Below, in pieces: positions 14,338-33,428 of a stretch of DNA of 35,861 bases. Position 1 is the first letter of the stretch. Every line of letters starts with the position of its first letter. Origin of the DNA: a virus. A program made the position numbers and the translations under genes. Under the pieces are notes generated by a model. It was not told the origin of the DNA. It was given only the letters and a program-made list of their open reading frames with translations, and did not search any database. The DNA lies in the IMG/VR virus record IMGVR_UViG_3300045988_152094. One strand, given 5' to 3'.

Positions 14338-14721
14338 AAACAAAACAGCGATCGCCGACGCAGCGCAAAAAAGATAAAAATATTACTCAGTGATGAACCG
14401 AAAACGGGAAGAGATGCCGGGCGCCGAGGACCAACCCCGAAACCGGGAGGGGCGTTCCGCAAAAAGATTTTTCGCAGAAAATGCGGCGCGCCCGTCATTT
14501 CGAGCGAAAAATCTGGCATTCGGGGACTCTTGCGCGCGGGCGCAAGGCGTGCTAGGCTGGTCTCGCCGCCGGGCGCAGGCCCACGACGAACCTCGAAGCT
14601 AGAACCCATGGGGCAGTGCCGGGCGGTACGTGTCGAGGTCCGACTGACCTCAGATGAGCCGCACCGCTCACAAATCGGGGCGCGCGCCCCCAACCGACCG
14701 TTTCACCCTGAGGAGCCGACG
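14338..14721. other. 384-bp non-coding region between HNH and terS; predicted location of cos plus the late leader
   Basis: A-tract rich. Inverted repeat AGATTTTTCGC (14465-14475) / GCGAAAAATCT (14504-14514). Repeated CCGAAA(A)C(C)GGGA motif near 14398 and 14436. Palindrome CTTGCGCgcggGCGCAAG (14529-14546). Confidence 0.5.
14530..14558 (+). promoter_or_regulatory. candidate promoter for the structural operon: TTGCGC (14530-14535), 17-nt spacer, TAGGCT (14553-14558)
   Basis: tcTTGCGCgcgggcgcaaggcgtgcTAGGCTggtctc. The leader would be about 160 nt, running to the SD-led terS start. Confidence 0.45.
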
Positions 14722-15201
14722 ATGAGCCGCAAAGCCGGTCAGAGCGTGAGCGACGCCCGTCTGCCGCGTGGGCTCCGGCTCGTGGACGACTCCGTGCCGG
14801 AGAAGGCCACGATGCACACTGCGGCCGCGCTTCCGCGAGGCGCTGCCCGGCTGGAGCCGCCCTCGACGCTGCGGGCGGACCTGCACCCCCTGTGGGACGA
14901 GATCACGGGCTCACTCCACGCGAGCGGCCTCCTTGCCGCGGCGGACACCACGATGGTGTCACTCCTCGTGCAGGAGCTGGAGCTCTACACAATCGCGGTC
15001 GGCACCGCACGCGCTGAGGGTGTGATTCTCTACAGCGAGAAGGGCACGCCTGTCGCCAACCCAGCTTTCTCGATCGCATCGACGCACGCCCGCGTCATCG
15101 AGGGGCTGTGCAAGACGATGGGCTTGACGTTCGTGGCCCGTGCTGCGATGGATGCGCCGGAGTCTGTGAAGGCGAAGGCTGGCAACCCGTTCGCCGTCTA
15201 G
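14722..15201 (+). CDS. terS: terminase small subunit, P27-like (159 aa)
   Basis: SD GAGGAG. Pattern LHPLWDEI...LLAAADTTMVSLLVQELELY...NPAF...GLCKTMGLTF resembles P27-family TerS. Position upstream of terL. Confidence 0.8.
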   Translation: MSRKAGQSVSDARLPRGLRLVDDSVPEKATMHTAAALPRGAARLEPPSTLRADLHPLWDEITGSLHASGLLAAADTTMVSLLVQELELYTIAVGTARAEGVILYSEKGTPVANPAFSIASTHARVIEGLCKTMGLTFVARAAMDAPESVKAKAGNPFAV

Positions 15202-15204
15202 CCT
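15199..15204 (+). promoter_or_regulatory. late-type box TAGCCT, 6 nt before the terL ATG
   Basis: TAGCCTgagcctATG. No SD and no -35 match. The TAG is also the terS stop codon. Confidence 0.3.
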
Positions 15205-15210
15205 GAGCCT

Positions 15211-31420: not shown

Positions 31421-31426
31421 GGGCAT

Positions 31427-33409
31427 ATGACATCTAGATCAATCACCTTCGCAGCCCCGGCCCCCGGCTGGGTTCAGGTAAGCCCCATCCTGCCTCCCTA
31501 TGGGGCCCCCAGGGTAGACAATATGCCGGACGCCACAAGTGCGCAGTTCGCAACGCCCGGTAGCGTCACACTCTCCTGGGACGACGAGGGTTGGGGTGCG
31601 TGGGGCGCAGAGGGGGCTGTCGTCGGCGGCACCGTCGAGCGCACTGACACGGCTACGTCGTCCGGCGTTACACAGTTGCTGTCAGCATCATCTTCTAGAG
31701 CCTCAGCGGCCCCTGGAGGTGGCCCGGCATTCTCCCCGGGGCAGTCGGGCGGCGGCATCGGATCGCTCGCTGTGCTCCCGCTCCGCTCTGGCCAGCCCGC
31801 CCCCACGGTCGGATTCTTCGGCGACTCCTGGAGCACCGAGAGCACCATGGGGCAGGGCTTCAACCTGCCGTCCGTCGTATCACGCGCGCTGGGCTGTGTC
31901 CCGGTGTTCAGCGCGGTCGACGGCTCCGGTTTCGGCTACTCTGCCTCGGGCCGCGACGGTTTCGAGGTGGACGCCCGCGTCAACGCCGTCTGCGCCGCGG
32001 CCCCGAATCTGATCGTGACCATCGGGTCCCTGAACGCGGACAAGGTGATCGACAACGGCGACGCTACCGGCTCGGCGATCACTGAAGCCGTGAAGTCCTT
32101 CATCTCCAAGGTCCGCGCCAAGCTCCCCAACGTGCCGATTGTGGTGCTCGGCCCGCAGCCGTCGTCGGTGGTGCGCCTCCAGTCCCGCTCCGCCCACGTC
32201 AACGTCATGGCGACGAAGGCCGGCGTGATCGCCAGCGGCGGCCTCGCGAGCGGCATCGCCTTCGTCGACTGGCTCGGTGTCGCTGACACGCAGGCGGCGC
32301 CGTGGCGCGATGGTCGGGTGTGCGCCACCGGCGACGTAGTCGTCTACAACGGCGTCGCCTACCGTGTGACTCGGGCCTGGGTCCCCGGTTCAGGCGAGAC
32401 CCCACTCTCGGCGAACGCCCCCGTCGTCCAGGTGTCGGACGTCCTGTCCGGGACCGGACACGCGGGGGCTCCGAAGGGCGACGGCACCAGGGACACCCTC
32501 CTGCTGAGCGACGAGACGCACCCCACGAAGATGGGGGCCGCCGCCTTCGGTGCGGCTGCCGCGAAGCGTATCGGCGACGCGGTGGCGTCCCTGGCGTCGT
32601 GGGCCAAGGCTCAGGGGCCGGTCATCCCAGCCGCGCCCGCAGCTCCTCCGACTCCGCCTCCCGCCAAGGATGACAGCCTCCCGATCATGGCGTGGCTCCC
32701 CGGAGGGTGGGGCACCACTGACCGGTCCCTCTACTCGACGGCCGAGATCAGTGCTGTCGCAGCCCTTAAGCCGACGCAGGTGGCTTTGCCGATCCAGAGC
32801 ACCCTCGACTCGGCCGACGCCGCTGTCGCTATCCCTGCGACCGTTAACGACAACTCCGGCACGAGCCGTAAGTTCTCGGACAACTCGATTAAGGGGCTGC
32901 GTAATCTCGGCTTCGACGTGTCGGGCATGGTCGAGGCGATCGACGCGCTCGAAGCCGCTGGGATCGAGGTCCTGCCGAACGTCCGCAGCGGCCTCTCCGA
33001 CGCGGGGGCCCAGTGGTATAGGTCCTCGGACGGGAAGATCTGCACCCTCCTCGGCAAGCGGGCTGGGAAGACGTACCAGTCGATCCACGGCCGTGGGCAG
33101 TCCAAGCTGCGCGGAATCCTGAAGGACCAGTACCCGACGTTCACGCGCGTCGTGGACGCTACAGACGCCACAGCGGACTGGATGCTCACCGGCACGGTCA
33201 CGGCCGCTCAGAAGGGCATCCTGTCGGCCGCTAAGGCCGGTGCCCCTGTGTGGAGGGCTGCGAAGACGACCTTCCCTGACGGCGTGTGGGTGCTCGTGAC
33301 GTCTAAGGACGAGCAGGAGACGGCCAAGAGTGCGGCGCAGGGTGCTGGCGTGACCATCGTCGGCTGGGCCGTGCCCACGGCTGAGGCCCTGGCCGCGATC
33401 AGGGGGTGA
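31427..33409 (+). CDS. multidomain SGNH/GDSL hydrolase (esterase) with an embedded CBM5/12-like segment and an unknown C-terminal domain (660 aa)
   Basis: SGNH blocks FFGDSWS (I), GSLNAD (III) and DETHPT (V). WRDGRVCATGDVVVYNGVAYRVTRAWVPGSGETP resembles a chitin/carbohydrate-binding module. The N-terminus has an FN3-like SVTLSWDD. Pro-rich linker PAAPAAPPTPPPA. Confidence 0.75.
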   Translation: MTSRSITFAAPAPGWVQVSPILPPYGAPRVDNMPDATSAQFATPGSVTLSWDDEGWGAWGAEGAVVGGTVERTDTATSSGVTQLLSASSSRASAAPGGGPAFSPGQSGGGIGSLAVLPLRSGQPAPTVGFFGDSWSTESTMGQGFNLPSVVSRALGCVPVFSAVDGSGFGYSASGRDGFEVDARVNAVCAAAPNLIVTIGSLNADKVIDNGDATGSAITEAVKSFISKVRAKLPNVPIVVLGPQPSSVVRLQSRSAHVNVMATKAGVIASGGLASGIAFVDWLGVADTQAAPWRDGRVCATGDVVVYNGVAYRVTRAWVPGSGETPLSANAPVVQVSDVLSGTGHAGAPKGDGTRDTLLLSDETHPTKMGAAAFGAAAAKRIGDAVASLASWAKAQGPVIPAAPAAPPTPPPAKDDSLPIMAWLPGGWGTTDRSLYSTAEISAVAALKPTQVALPIQSTLDSADAAVAIPATVNDNSGTSRKFSDNSIKGLRNLGFDVSGMVEAIDALEAAGIEVLPNVRSGLSDAGAQWYRSSDGKICTLLGKRAGKTYQSIHGRGQSKLRGILKDQYPTFTRVVDATDATADWMLTGTVTAAQKGILSAAKAGAPVWRAAKTTFPDGVWVLVTSKDEQETAKSAAQGAGVTIVGWAVPTAEALAAIRG

Positions 33410-33422
33410 CCCCGGGGTCGCA

Positions 33423-33428
33423 TAGACT
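33423..33428 (+). promoter_or_regulatory. late-type box TAGACT upstream of the holin gene (leadered)
   Basis: caTAGACTggtccacggcccacaaggctgAAAGGAGaaaaccATG. Confidence 0.3.

What the first reader, a model, noticed from the sequence alone, without database searches (positions are those of the whole stretch)
14553..33428. Two promoter classes: early TTGnnn-N17/18-TATnnT versus a late-arm TAG(A/G/C)CT box without a -35
Early class. All early-arm boxes are TAT/TACnnT with a TTG-type -35 placed 17-18 nt upstream: TTGACA at 8058, 8436 and 11008; TTGACC at 6190 and 13481; TTGACT at 2740; TTGTGC at 315; TTGCGG at 4733. The HNH gene on the plus strand has the same type (TTGTGA-N18-TACGCT).

Late class. 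Almost every intergenic gap in the structural arm carries TAGACT (21807, 23401, 27420, 33423), TAGGCT (14553, 19085), TAGCCT (15199) or TAGGAT (16943; a further copy at 33678 lies just downstream of the holin gene). Apart from 14553, which has TTGCGC, none has a recognisable -35.

Three of these boxes precede SD-containing leaders: terS (box at 14553), major tail (23401) and holin (33423). This argues that they act in transcription rather than translation.

The pattern suggests a late promoter class that needs a phage factor or an alternative sigma. No sigma or activator gene is obvious in the genome. The small HTH protein (5929..6159) and the HTH-metallophosphoesterase are the only DNA-binding candidates.
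Basis: partly seen in the sequence, partly recalled or inferred. Interest (0 to 1): 0.7.

Follow-up and report, generated by a model that had tools for sequence, protein, structure and literature searches.

The report
Minus-10-only promoters making leaderless phage mRNAs
The TAG(N)CT boxes are real and conserved, and most sit exactly 6 bases before SD-less ATG start codons, which is the standard actinobacterial signature of a housekeeping-sigma -10 element that starts a leaderless mRNA, so this looks like a tidy but known kind of promoter rather than evidence for a new phage sigma factor.

Summary
The window is a 67% GC siphophage-like genome from human oral metagenomes. Its only distant relatives in the phage collection infect Actinobacteria.

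**Observation.** Two promoter populations exist:
- Eleven promoters have a TTGNNN -35 placed 17-18 nt upstream of TANNNT. These are all 8 early ones, the HNH promoter, P14553 and a missed one at 21112/21136.
- About twelve late-arm TANNNT boxes have no -35.

- The late boxes lie exactly N6 upstream of ATGs that lack a Shine-Dalgarno sequence: terL, 16955, protease, adaptor, 27432, 31327, 31427 and 33766.
- Five early promoters and the HNH promoter have the same geometry.
- TANNNT-N6-ATG occurs 12 times against 1.6 expected, always on the sense strand.
- Box and SD are mutually exclusive (p = 0.0007).

**Conservation.** In relatives at 75-89% nucleotide identity the boxes are 96-100% conserved, while the spacers (64-78%) and upstream bases vary. 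The only intragenic TAGNCT is not conserved.

**Interpretation.** These are most likely sigma-A-type -10 elements that start leaderless or short-leader transcription units. A dedicated phage sigma or activator is neither needed nor excluded:
- TAGACT is the M. tuberculosis rrnAP3 -10.
- -35-less promoters are normal in Actinobacteria.
- Non-TAG variants occur.
- No sigma or activator gene was found.

Verdict: new member of a known kind, moderate interest.

The parts
13870..13908 (+). HNH promoter: TTGTGA -35, N18, TACGCT -10 (13894-13899), N6, ATG 13906 (predicted leaderless)
   Evidence: The TTG, the box, the spacing and the ATG are conserved in 6 relatives.
14530..14724 (+). Main late promoter P14553: TTGCGC -35 (14530), N17, TGc-TAGGCT (14553-14558), then a ~157-nt conserved leader and SD GAGGAG before terS ATG 14722
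   Evidence: ATG 14608 is not conserved. An independent gene call gives a 159-aa terS.
15199..15213 (+). TAGCCT-N6-ATG, terL start; no -35, no SD. The TAG is also the terS stop codon.
   Evidence: It is TAACCT in L015 and L017, so TANNNT is kept.
16943..16957 (+). TAGGAT-N6-ATG, 66-aa gene upstream of portal; no -35
   Evidence: The box is invariant in 17 relatives while the flanks vary. L013 has a GTG start.
19085..19099 (+). TAGGCT-N6-ATG, capsid maturation protease; no -35, no SD
   Evidence: It is TAGGAT in L012 and TAGCCT in L017.
21052..21179 (+). Terminator-like hairpin after the capsid gene (21052-21098), then TTGACA (21112) - N18 - TAATGT (21136), an SD leader and ATG 21177 (75-aa membrane protein)
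   Evidence: The hairpin folds at -38.6 kcal/mol (z = -6.1) and shows compensatory changes. The -10 is TAGTGT in relatives.
21807..21821 (+). TAGACT-N6-ATG, head-tail adaptor. The box overlaps the 3' end of the upstream gene.
   Evidence: The spacer varies (AGCAT, AGCCC, AGGTC, AGTGC); it is N7 in L001.
23401..23460 (+). TAGACT box, ~45-nt leader with a small hairpin and SD AAGGAGG, major tail protein ATG 23458
27420..27434 (+). TAGACT-N6-ATG, minor tail gene after the tape measure gene
30387..30421 (+). TACGCT box (no -35), variable discriminator, 20-nt SD leader, endolysin (Amidase_2) ATG 30419
31315..31329 (+). TAGCCT-N6-ATG. It heads a long tail-fibre-like ORF in relatives, but only a 13-codon remnant here.
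31415..31429 (+). TAACAT-N6-ATG, window-specific 660-aa gene (GDSL-lipase-like/CBM5_12)
33423..33465 (+). TAGACT box, SD leader (AAAGGAG), holin ATG 33463. Homology with relatives begins exactly at the box.
33678..33683 (+). TAGGAT, conserved but of uncertain role. It overlaps ATG 33682, which is not a real start because the frame is not kept in relatives.
33712..33768 (+). Perfect 21-bp hairpin (33712-33756) abutting TACTAT (33754) - N6 - ATG 33766 (48-aa gene)
   Evidence: The hairpin folds at -41.6 kcal/mol (z = -10.6). The box is TACGAT, TAGTAT or TAATAT in relatives, with N6 or N7 spacing.
282..320 (-). Early promoter: TTGTGC-N18-TATGGT-N6-ATG 284 (predicted leaderless)
   Evidence: In L052 the ATG is lost and a downstream ATG with an SD is used instead.
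2677..2745 (-). Early promoter: TTGACT-N18-TATGAT, 36-nt SD leader, ATG 2679
4700..4738 (-). Early promoter: TTGCGG-N18-TATTCT-N6-ATG 4702 (DNA polymerase, predicted leaderless). The -35 sits in the loop of a co-varying hairpin.
6157..6195 (-). Early promoter: TTGACC-N18-TATATT-N6-ATG 6159 (76-aa HTH protein, predicted leaderless)
8025..8063 (-). Early promoter: TTGACA-N17-TATGCT-N7-ATG 8027 (predicted leaderless)
8402..8441 (-). Early promoter: TTGACA-N18-TATGCT-N7-ATG 8404 (predicted leaderless)
10929..11013 (-). Early promoter: TTGACA-N17-TACGCT, SD leader, ATG 10931. A 17-codon leaderless uORF starts at 10977.
13420..13486 (-). Early promoter: TTGACC-N18-TACCGT, 34-nt SD leader, primase/helicase ATG 13422

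Best explanation
The boxes are -10 elements (TANNNT) of housekeeping-sigma (sigma-A/sigma-70 family) promoters.

In this phage lineage a promoter is usually placed so that transcription starts on the A of the ATG. The hexamer occupies -12 to -7, six spacer bases follow, and +1 is the A. The first gene of each unit is therefore translated from a leaderless mRNA, and downstream genes in the unit use SD sequences or stop/start overlap.

The early arm uses -35 plus -10 promoters. The late arm is driven by two promoters with a -35 (14530/14553 and 21112/21136) plus about ten internal -35-independent, -10-only promoters. These cut the structural region into small units:
- terL
- 16955 + portal
- protease + capsid
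- adaptor to tail terminator
- major tail protein to tape measure protein
- minor tail genes
- endolysin
- fibre/lipase
- holin
- 33766 + the 518-aa gene

Shown here: sequence, geometry, statistics and conservation. Inferred: that RNA polymerase starts at these sites, and which sigma factor is used.
For: 1. **Geometry.** TANNNT-N6-ATG occurs 12 times against 1.6 expected, and TAGNCT-N6-ATG 5 times against 0.18. Every hit is on the coding strand of its arm. Two more have N7 spacing.

2. **Shared with textbook promoters.** Five early promoters and the HNH promoter, each with a TTG-type -35 at 17-18 nt, have the same N6/N7 geometry.

3. **Box and SD are mutually exclusive.** An SD tetramer is present in 1 of 13 box genes, and that one lies inside the box itself. 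It is present in 17 of 26 other genes (p = 0.0007). All 13 box genes start with ATG.

4. **Conservation in relatives at 75-89% identity.**
   - Box positions are 100/100/96/99/99/100% conserved.
   - The spacer is 64-78% conserved and the upstream bases 72-88%.
   - Spacing is kept even when 5 of 6 spacer bases change (L017).
   - T1, A2 and T6 never change, while middle bases occasionally do.

5. **Negative control.** The intragenic TAGCCT at 22569 is not conserved.

6. **Mosaic junctions.** Recombination boundaries coincide with boxes: homology resumes at 33423, and a remnant box-ATG survives at 31315.

7. **Leaderless/leadered switching.** In L052 the promoter of gene 42-284 is kept, but the ATG is lost and replaced by a downstream ATG with an SD.

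8. **Literature.**
   - TANNNT with its first T about 12 nt before the start codon marks leaderless genes in Actinobacteria (PMC3160421).
   - 21-24% of mRNAs are leaderless, and AUG is preferred for them in S. coelicolor (PMC4895711; PMC6448022). The -35 is less conserved in S. coelicolor and has no conserved consensus in M. smegmatis (same papers).
   - The rrnAP3 -10 is TAGACT (PMC4176334).
Against: - There is no transcript 5'-end data.
- The host is uncultured and inferred only from distant relatives that infect Actinobacteria and from an oral-metagenome source.
- SD-less genes 4-19 nt downstream of a stop codon could also be translated by re-initiation on a polycistronic RNA.
- All six box positions, including the nominally free middle three, are more conserved than plain TANNNT recognition requires.
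- G at position 3 is enriched in the -35-less set. This hints at a more specific reader than generic sigma-A.
- Three cultured actinophages with the closest terL lack this architecture, so it is not simply what all actinophages do.
Confidence: 0.68

Rival explanations
1. The -35-less TAG-type boxes are a dedicated late class. They fire only after an early phage protein modifies host RNA polymerase, for example a sigma-region-4 displacer or appropriator like P23-45 gp39 or T4 AsiA, or a phage sigma. The same event would shut off the -35-dependent early promoters.
For: - The -35 split is clean: all 8 early promoters have a -35, and about 12 late boxes have none.
- G at position 3 occurs in 9/11 -35-less boxes against 1/11 boxes with a -35 (p = 0.002).
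- The middle box bases are 96-99% conserved in late boxes against 87-98% in early boxes.
- Seven small early ORFs of 61-149 aa, plus a 76-aa HTH protein, have no assigned function.
- There is precedent for a switch toward -35-independent promoters by sigma-4 displacement (PMC7403470).
Against: - No sigma, WhiB, AsiA, gp39 or activator homologue was found by PHROG, Pfam or PDB sequence search.
- The late boxes lack the extended -10 TGn that the gp39/AsiA-resistant class carries; only 2 of 12 have it.
- TAGACT is a bona fide sigma-A -10.
- -35-less promoters are the norm for actinobacterial sigma-A.
- The late arm contains promoters with a -35 (14530/14553 and 21112/21136) and non-TAG -10-only boxes (30387, 31415, 33754).
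- Relatives swap G3 for A or C.
Confidence: 0.2
2. The boxes act on RNA rather than as promoters. They could be a start-associated translation signal for SD-less cistrons on a polycistronic late mRNA. Alternatively they could be a cleavage site for an endoribonuclease that trims the RNA to give 5'-terminal AUGs.
For: - The position relative to the start codon is fixed, and no SD is present.
- Cluster K mycobacteriophages carry conserved start-associated sequences of unknown mechanism just upstream of ATG starts (PMC3203893).
- The upstream stop codon lies only 4-19 nt from these ATGs.
Against: - The motif has no complementarity to the anti-SD.
- The invariant positions are exactly T-12, A-11 and T-7 of a sigma-70-type -10.
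- Promoters with an unambiguous -35 use identical geometry.
- Four boxes (14553, 23401, 30387, 33423) lie 20-160 nt from the start codon, ahead of ordinary SD leaders. That fits a promoter and not a start-codon-proximal translation signal.
Confidence: 0.08
3. The pattern is a compositional artefact. TAG-containing hexamers pile up between genes only because TAG is a stop codon and AT-rich words are excluded from high-GC coding sequence.
For: - The genome-wide TAGRCT count is not above chance: 8 against 11 expected.
- At 15199 the TAG is the terS stop codon. At 33423, in relatives, the TAG is also a stop codon.
Against: - Among TAGs, NCT follows in 7/14 upstream-zone cases against 2/37 elsewhere (p = 8e-4).
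- The distance to the downstream ATG is fixed, while the distance to the upstream stop varies.
- The boxes are 96-100% conserved next to variable non-coding bases.
- The intragenic copy is not conserved.
Confidence: 0.02

Closest known systems
Actinobacterial sigma-A promoters of leaderless genes (TANNNT about 12 nt upstream of the start codon; M. tuberculosis, M. smegmatis, S. coelicolor, C. glutamicum)
   Same: - The hexamer is TANNNT, with its first T 12 nt before the A of ATG.
- There is no SD, and ATG is preferred.
- The -35 is often absent.
- TAGACT is identical to the rrnAP3 -10.
   Different: - Here the elements lie inside a phage structural-gene array, with about 9 in 22 kb, and 13 of 39 genes in the whole genome carry a box at N6/N7.
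- All six hexamer positions are conserved among relatives.
- The host is unknown.
Thermus phage P23-45 middle/late promoters with gp39/gp76
   Same: - Host sigma-A RNAP transcribes later genes from promoters that lack a -35.
- A -35-dependent class is disfavoured (PMC7403470).
- From my memory of Berdygulova et al. 2011, which I could not retrieve, most of those transcripts are leaderless.
   Different: - The P23-45 promoters are extended -10 (TGn) promoters, whereas only 2 of about 12 boxes here have TGn.
- No gp39 or gp76 homologue was detected.
- The host phylum is different.
T4 late promoters (TATAAATA, gp55/gp33)
   Same: Late structural genes are driven by a -10-like element alone, without a -35.
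   Different: - T4 encodes its own sigma (gp55), and no such gene was found here.
- The box here matches a housekeeping -10 rather than a novel motif.
Start-associated sequences (SAS) of Cluster K mycobacteriophages
   Same: - A short, conserved, asymmetric motif sits a few bases upstream of a subset of ATG starts.
- It has a single orientation.
- It sometimes contains the upstream gene's stop codon (PMC3203893).
   Different: - The SAS is the 13-bp sequence GGGATAGGAGCCC, which contains the SD core.
- It is confined to the non-structural arm.
- Here the motif has no SD, follows the TANNNT rule, and lies mostly in the structural arm.

Membership tests
Sigma-70-family -10 promoter giving a leaderless mRNA (actinobacterial type) | TANNNT hexamer with its first T about 12 nt (hexamer end 6-7 nt) upstream of the start codon | tested here: met
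   There are 12 N6 hits against 1.6 expected, plus 2 gene starts with N7 spacing. All are on the sense strand.
Sigma-70-family -10 promoter giving a leaderless mRNA (actinobacterial type) | No Shine-Dalgarno sequence; AUG (or GUG) at +1 | tested here: met
   An SD tetramer is present in 1/13 box genes against 17/26 others (p = 0.0007). All 13 box genes start with ATG.
Sigma-70-family -10 promoter giving a leaderless mRNA (actinobacterial type) | Selective constraint on T-12, A-11 and T-7 and on spacing, with a free discriminator | tested here: met
   Box positions are 96-100% conserved and the spacer 64-78%. Variants such as TAACCT, TAGGAT and TAGTAT keep TANNNT.
Sigma-70-family -10 promoter giving a leaderless mRNA (actinobacterial type) | A primary (triphosphate) 5' end mapped at the start codon | not testable with these tools
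   No transcript data are available. This needs dRNA-seq, 5'-RACE or metatranscriptome read starts.
Sigma-70-family -10 promoter giving a leaderless mRNA (actinobacterial type) | The host belongs to a leaderless-rich, high-GC lineage (Actinobacteria) | tested here: inconclusive
   - The window is 67% GC.
- The best terL and capsid hits are all actinophages at no more than 49% identity.
- An identical terL lies on a human oral metagenome contig.
- Two genome-contig scans gave no host hit.
Phage-sigma or activator-dependent late promoters (T4 gp55, SPO1 gp33/34 type) | The phage encodes a sigma factor or a dedicated late activator | tested here: not met
   No sigma, WhiB or activator family was found in any early ORF by PHROGs, Pfam (E <= 0.1) or PDB phmmer. 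Small ORFs of unknown function remain, so a novel factor is not excluded.
Phage-sigma or activator-dependent late promoters (T4 gp55, SPO1 gp33/34 type) | The late promoter motif is distinct from the host housekeeping -10 | tested here: not met
   TAGNCT fits TANNNT, and TAGACT is the rrnAP3 -10. Only a G3 preference distinguishes the class.
Sigma-region-4 displacement switch (P23-45 gp39 / T4 AsiA) | A -10/-35 class and a -35-independent class coexist in one phage | tested here: met
Sigma-region-4 displacement switch (P23-45 gp39 / T4 AsiA) | The resistant class carries an extended -10 TGn | tested here: not met
   TGn is present only at 14553 (which has a -35) and 31315. All other late boxes lack it.
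Sigma-region-4 displacement switch (P23-45 gp39 / T4 AsiA) | A homologue of gp39, gp76, AsiA or p7 is present | tested here: not met
   No hits. No structure-based search was done.
Cluster K start-associated sequences (SAS) | 13-bp GGGATAGGAGCCC with the SD core, 3-7 bp from the start, in the non-structural arm | tested here: not met
   The motif here is TAGNCT/TANNNT without an SD, at N6, and mostly in the structural arm.

The most novel reading that the evidence does not exclude
The -35-less, G3-rich boxes form a phage-timed late class. One of the unannotated small early proteins (61-149 aa, or the 76-aa HTH protein) would be a new actinophage factor that disables sigma-A region 4 or otherwise remodels RNAP. 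This would switch off the hairpin-embedded -35/-10 early promoters and leave only the -10-only, leaderless late units active. It would be an AsiA/gp39-like switch in an oral actinobacterial phage, without an extended -10.
Probability: 0.17. Interest if true: 0.6.

Novelty: new member of a known kind. Interest (0 to 1): 0.38.

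Why it matters
**Annotation.** The result gives a precise and testable transcription map for an abundant but uncultured human-oral phage lineage. There are about 22 promoters, and 13 of 39 genes are predicted to be leaderless. It corrects several gene starts:
- terS starts at 14722.
- DNA polymerase starts at 4702.
- The gene after the holin starts at 33766.

**Biology.** A phage structural "operon" can be cut into many -10-only units whose first cistron is leaderless. The three closest cultured actinophages do not show this.

**Uses.**
- Gene callers that rely on an SD will mis-start such genes.
- The short, conserved TAGNCT-N6-ATG modules could serve as compact expression parts for high-GC hosts.
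- If the late class proves to be factor-dependent, the small early ORFs become candidates for a new RNAP-remodelling protein.

Tried and rejected
1. **Bare TAGRCT and TAGNMT counts against shuffles.** Neither is enriched, so raw frequency was dropped as an argument in favour of placement, geometry and conservation.

2. **A shared upstream motif or -35 in the late class.** Information content is nil upstream of the box. Conservation upstream shows only 3-periodic coding constraint.

3. **G-rich discriminator as a class marker.** It is not significant between the classes with and without a -35.

4. **Extended -10.** It is absent from most late boxes.

5. **Host identification.**
   - Megablast against phages gave no hit.
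   - A scan of genome contigs with the 518-aa protein found nothing, and so did a scan with a conserved 22-mer.
   - Only an oral-metagenome provenance was recovered.

6. **Rfam at gathering thresholds.** No known RNA family was found in the window.

7. **Canonical intrinsic terminators.** They are not above chance. The strong hairpins lack U-tracts.

8. **More distant terL relatives (about 52% aa; L018-L022).** No enrichment of the architecture was seen.

9. **ATG 33682 as a gene start.** Rejected because 1-nt indels in relatives break the frame before 33766. ATG 14608 for terS was rejected because it is not conserved.

10. **The Berdygulova 2011 P23-45 paper.** It could not be retrieved.

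Full report
**What the window is.** The window is 35.9 kb at 67% GC.
- A minus-strand replication arm spans about 1-13,500. It encodes exonucleases, DNA polymerase, an SSB/annealing protein, helicase and primase-helicase.
- A plus-strand arm spans about 13,900-35,800. It encodes HNH, terS, terL, portal, protease, capsid, connectors, tail genes, an Amidase_2 endolysin and a holin.
- No near-identical phage is in the phage collection. The best protein hits are actinobacteriophages at no more than 49% identity.
- IMG/VR holds many relatives at 75-89% nucleotide identity.
- A contig with an identical terL comes from a human oral metagenome.
- I infer that the host is an oral high-GC actinobacterium. 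It was not identified.

**Checking the observation.**
- The bare count of TAGRCT is not above chance: 8 against 11 expected. The placement is.
- On the + strand of the late arm, 8 of 9 TAGNCT are at gene junctions, and 5 lie within the 2.1% of sequence that is within 20 nt upstream of a start codon (p = 5e-7).
- Among all TAGs, NCT follows in 7/14 upstream-zone cases against 2/37 elsewhere (p = 8e-4).
- The only intragenic TAGNCT (22569) is absent from all 11 relative variants. The junction boxes are 96-100% conserved.

Most late boxes sit exactly six bases before an ATG that has no Shine-Dalgarno sequence:

| Box | Spacer and start | Gene |
|---|---|---|
| TAGCCT | gagcct-ATG 15211 | terL |
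| TAGGAT | tgaccc-ATG 16955 | 66-aa gene |
| TAGGCT | tagacc-ATG 19097 | protease |
| TAGACT | gagcat-ATG 21819 | adaptor |
| TAGACT | gggtcc-ATG 27432 | minor tail gene |
| TAGCCT | gtctgt-ATG 31327 | 13-codon remnant |
| TAACAT | gggcat-ATG 31427 | 660-aa gene |
| TACTAT | gggggt-ATG 33766 | 48-aa gene |

- TAGNCT-N6-ATG occurs 5 times against 0.18 expected. TANNNT-N6-ATG occurs 12 times against 1.6 expected. All 12 are on the coding strand of their arm.
- The same geometry is used by promoters with an unambiguous TTG-type -35:
  - TTGTGC-N18-TATGGT-N6-ATG 284
  - TTGCGG-N18-TATTCT-N6-ATG 4702 (DNA polymerase)
  - TTGACC-N18-TATATT-N6-ATG 6159
  - TTGACA-N17/18-TATGCT-N7-ATG 8027 and 8404
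  - TTGTGA-N18-TACGCT-N6-ATG 13906 (HNH)
- Box and SD are mutually exclusive. An SD tetramer is present in 1 of 13 box genes, and that one is part of the box itself. It is present in 17 of 26 other genes (p = 0.0007). All 13 box genes start with ATG.
- This is the published signature of leaderless genes in Actinobacteria: TANNNT with its first T about 12 nt upstream of the start codon (PMC3160421). AUG is preferred for leaderless mRNAs in S. coelicolor (PMC4895711).

**Comparative evidence.**
- Across distinct relative variants, late-box positions are 100/100/96/99/99/100% identical and the next two bases 97/93%. The remaining spacer is 64-78% and the bases just upstream 72-88%.
- Spacing is preserved, with N7 once or twice.
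- In the most divergent relative (L017, 75% identity) the boxes persist with different middle bases and almost entirely different spacers: TAACCTggcgacATG, TAGCCTgtacccATG and TAGACTggccccATG.
- T1, A2 and T6 never change. G3 changes to A at terL, and position 3 is C, G or A at 33754 in relatives.
- Early promoters conserve both hexamers, while their 17-18-nt spacers and discriminators vary.
- In L052 the promoter of gene 42-284 is kept, but the ATG is lost and a downstream ATG with an SD is used. This is a leaderless-to-leadered switch.
- Mosaic boundaries coincide with boxes. Homology with relatives resumes exactly at TAGACT 33423. The TAGCCT-N6-ATG at 31315 heads a long tail-fibre-like ORF in relatives but only a 13-codon remnant here, and it is followed by a window-specific gene with its own TAACAT-N6-ATG.

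**The two classes.**
- The split by -35 is real. Eleven promoters have TTGNNN at 17-18 nt (random rate 3.5%). About twelve late-arm boxes score like random sequence.
- The split is not strictly early arm against late arm.
  - P14553 has TTGCGC, a TGc extended -10 and an upstream A-tract. It drives terS through a conserved leader of about 157 nt.
  - A missed promoter follows the capsid-gene hairpin: TTGACA 21112 - N18 - TAATGT 21136, which is TAGTGT in relatives.
- G at box position 3 is enriched in the -35-less set: 9/11 against 1/11 (p = 0.002). Counting TACGCT 30387 makes it 9/12.
- Extended -10 TGn and a G-rich discriminator do not separate the classes.

**Mechanism.**
- The best-supported reading is that the boxes are sigma-A-type -10 elements. 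Promoters in this lineage are positioned so that +1 is the A of the ATG.
- The late region is therefore a chain of small units. Each has a leaderless first cistron, or a short SD leader at 14553, 21136, 23401, 30387 and 33423. Downstream cistrons are SD-led or overlap-coupled.
- A special sigma is not required:
  - TAGACT is the -10 of the M. tuberculosis rrnAP3 promoter (PMC4176334).
  - TANNNT is the preferred SigA -10, no -35 consensus exists in M. smegmatis, and about 24% of its transcripts are leaderless (PMC6448022).
  - In S. coelicolor the -35 motif is found at only 59% of TSSs (PMC4895711).
  - No sigma, WhiB, or gp39/AsiA-like protein is detectable.
- A phage factor is not excluded either. 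The clean -35 split, the G3 bias and the tighter conservation of the middle box bases would fit a switch like P23-45 gp39 or T4 AsiA, which disfavours -35-dependent promoters (PMC7403470). Several small early ORFs are unassigned. I put this at about 0.2.
- A purely RNA-level role (translation signal or processing site) is unlikely. Clear -35/-10 promoters share the geometry. Four boxes also sit far upstream of ordinary SD leaders.
- A compositional artefact is excluded.

**Novelty.**
- All components are known.
- Three cultured actinophages with the closest terL have 0-1 TANNNT-N6-RTG among 25-29 late-arm starts. This window has 9 at plus-strand gene starts (10 pattern hits).
- More distant terL relatives show no enrichment. 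The dense use of the architecture in a structural arm is therefore lineage-specific.
- Full-text searches found no description of such an arrangement in actinophages.
- I file it as a new member of a known kind, of moderate interest. Its main practical value is in annotation and for uncultured oral phages.

Noticed in passing
window 4709-4760, 8035-8085, 8412-8460, 291-335 (minus strand): In four early promoters the -35 hexamer sits in the loop of a GC-rich inverted repeat. The arms co-vary in relatives, for example GGAGCCCCCGGG..TTGCGG..CCGGGGGCTCC against GAGCCCCTCAGG..CCTGAGGGGCTC. This looks like a U-tract-less terminator hairpin fused to the next promoter, or an insulator between early units.
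   Followed up: partly
window 33712-33756 and 21052-21098: Two very strong conserved hairpins lie immediately upstream of late promoters.
- The first is a perfect 21-bp stem (-41.6 kcal/mol, z = -10.6). Its last 3 nt are the first 3 nt of the TACTAT box.
- The second is a post-capsid hairpin (-38.6 kcal/mol, z = -6.1) with compensatory changes.
Neither has a U-tract.
   Followed up: partly
window 14565-14721: The terS leader is about 157 nt, highly conserved and predicted to be structured. RNAalifold gives three stems. One hairpin has AU-to-GC compensatory changes in 3 rows, and another has an invariant loop CTCACAAAT. The region could instead be cos or terminase-binding DNA, because the HNH gene lies just upstream. 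It has no Rfam match.
   Followed up: partly
window 31327-33409: A module has been replaced.
- Relatives carry a long tail-fibre-like ORF starting at the TAGCCT-N6-ATG.
- This window keeps only 13 codons of it, plus a hairpin at 31350-31386 that co-varies in relatives.
- A unique 660-aa gene with GDSL-lipase-like and CBM5/12 hits then follows, under its own TAACAT-N6-ATG.
   Followed up: partly
window 10927-10977 (minus strand): A conserved ATG lies 7 nt after the TACGCT -10 of the promoter for gene 10482-10931. It opens a 17-codon leaderless uORF whose TAA stop overlaps the main ATG (ATGGCTAA). This may be translational coupling from a leaderless uORF.
   Followed up: no
window 33678-33711: TAGGATG is invariant in relatives, but the ATG is not a real start. 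A small hairpin of variable sequence follows (GCCCCTTGGGGC here, GCTCCTCTCGGGGGC in others). This may be a further promoter for a short structured RNA or for a leadered transcript of gene 33766.
   Followed up: no
window 13500-13800 and 14340-14520: Two AT-rich non-coding stretches flank the HNH gene.
- The first lies between the divergent arms and holds a consensus TATAAT at 13751 and TAG-rich runs.
- The second is variable in relatives, apart from a conserved GGAGGGGCGTTCCGCAAAAA, and one relative contig ends there. It may hold the genome terminus (cos) or an origin.
   Followed up: no
window 2738-4768, 14530-15201, 33682-33912: The longest-ORF starts are wrong for three genes.
- DNA polymerase starts at ATG 4702, not GTG 4768.
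- terS starts at ATG 14722, not 14530 or 14608.
- The post-holin gene starts at ATG 33766, not 33682.
These follow from conservation, frame preservation and promoter geometry.
   Followed up: yes
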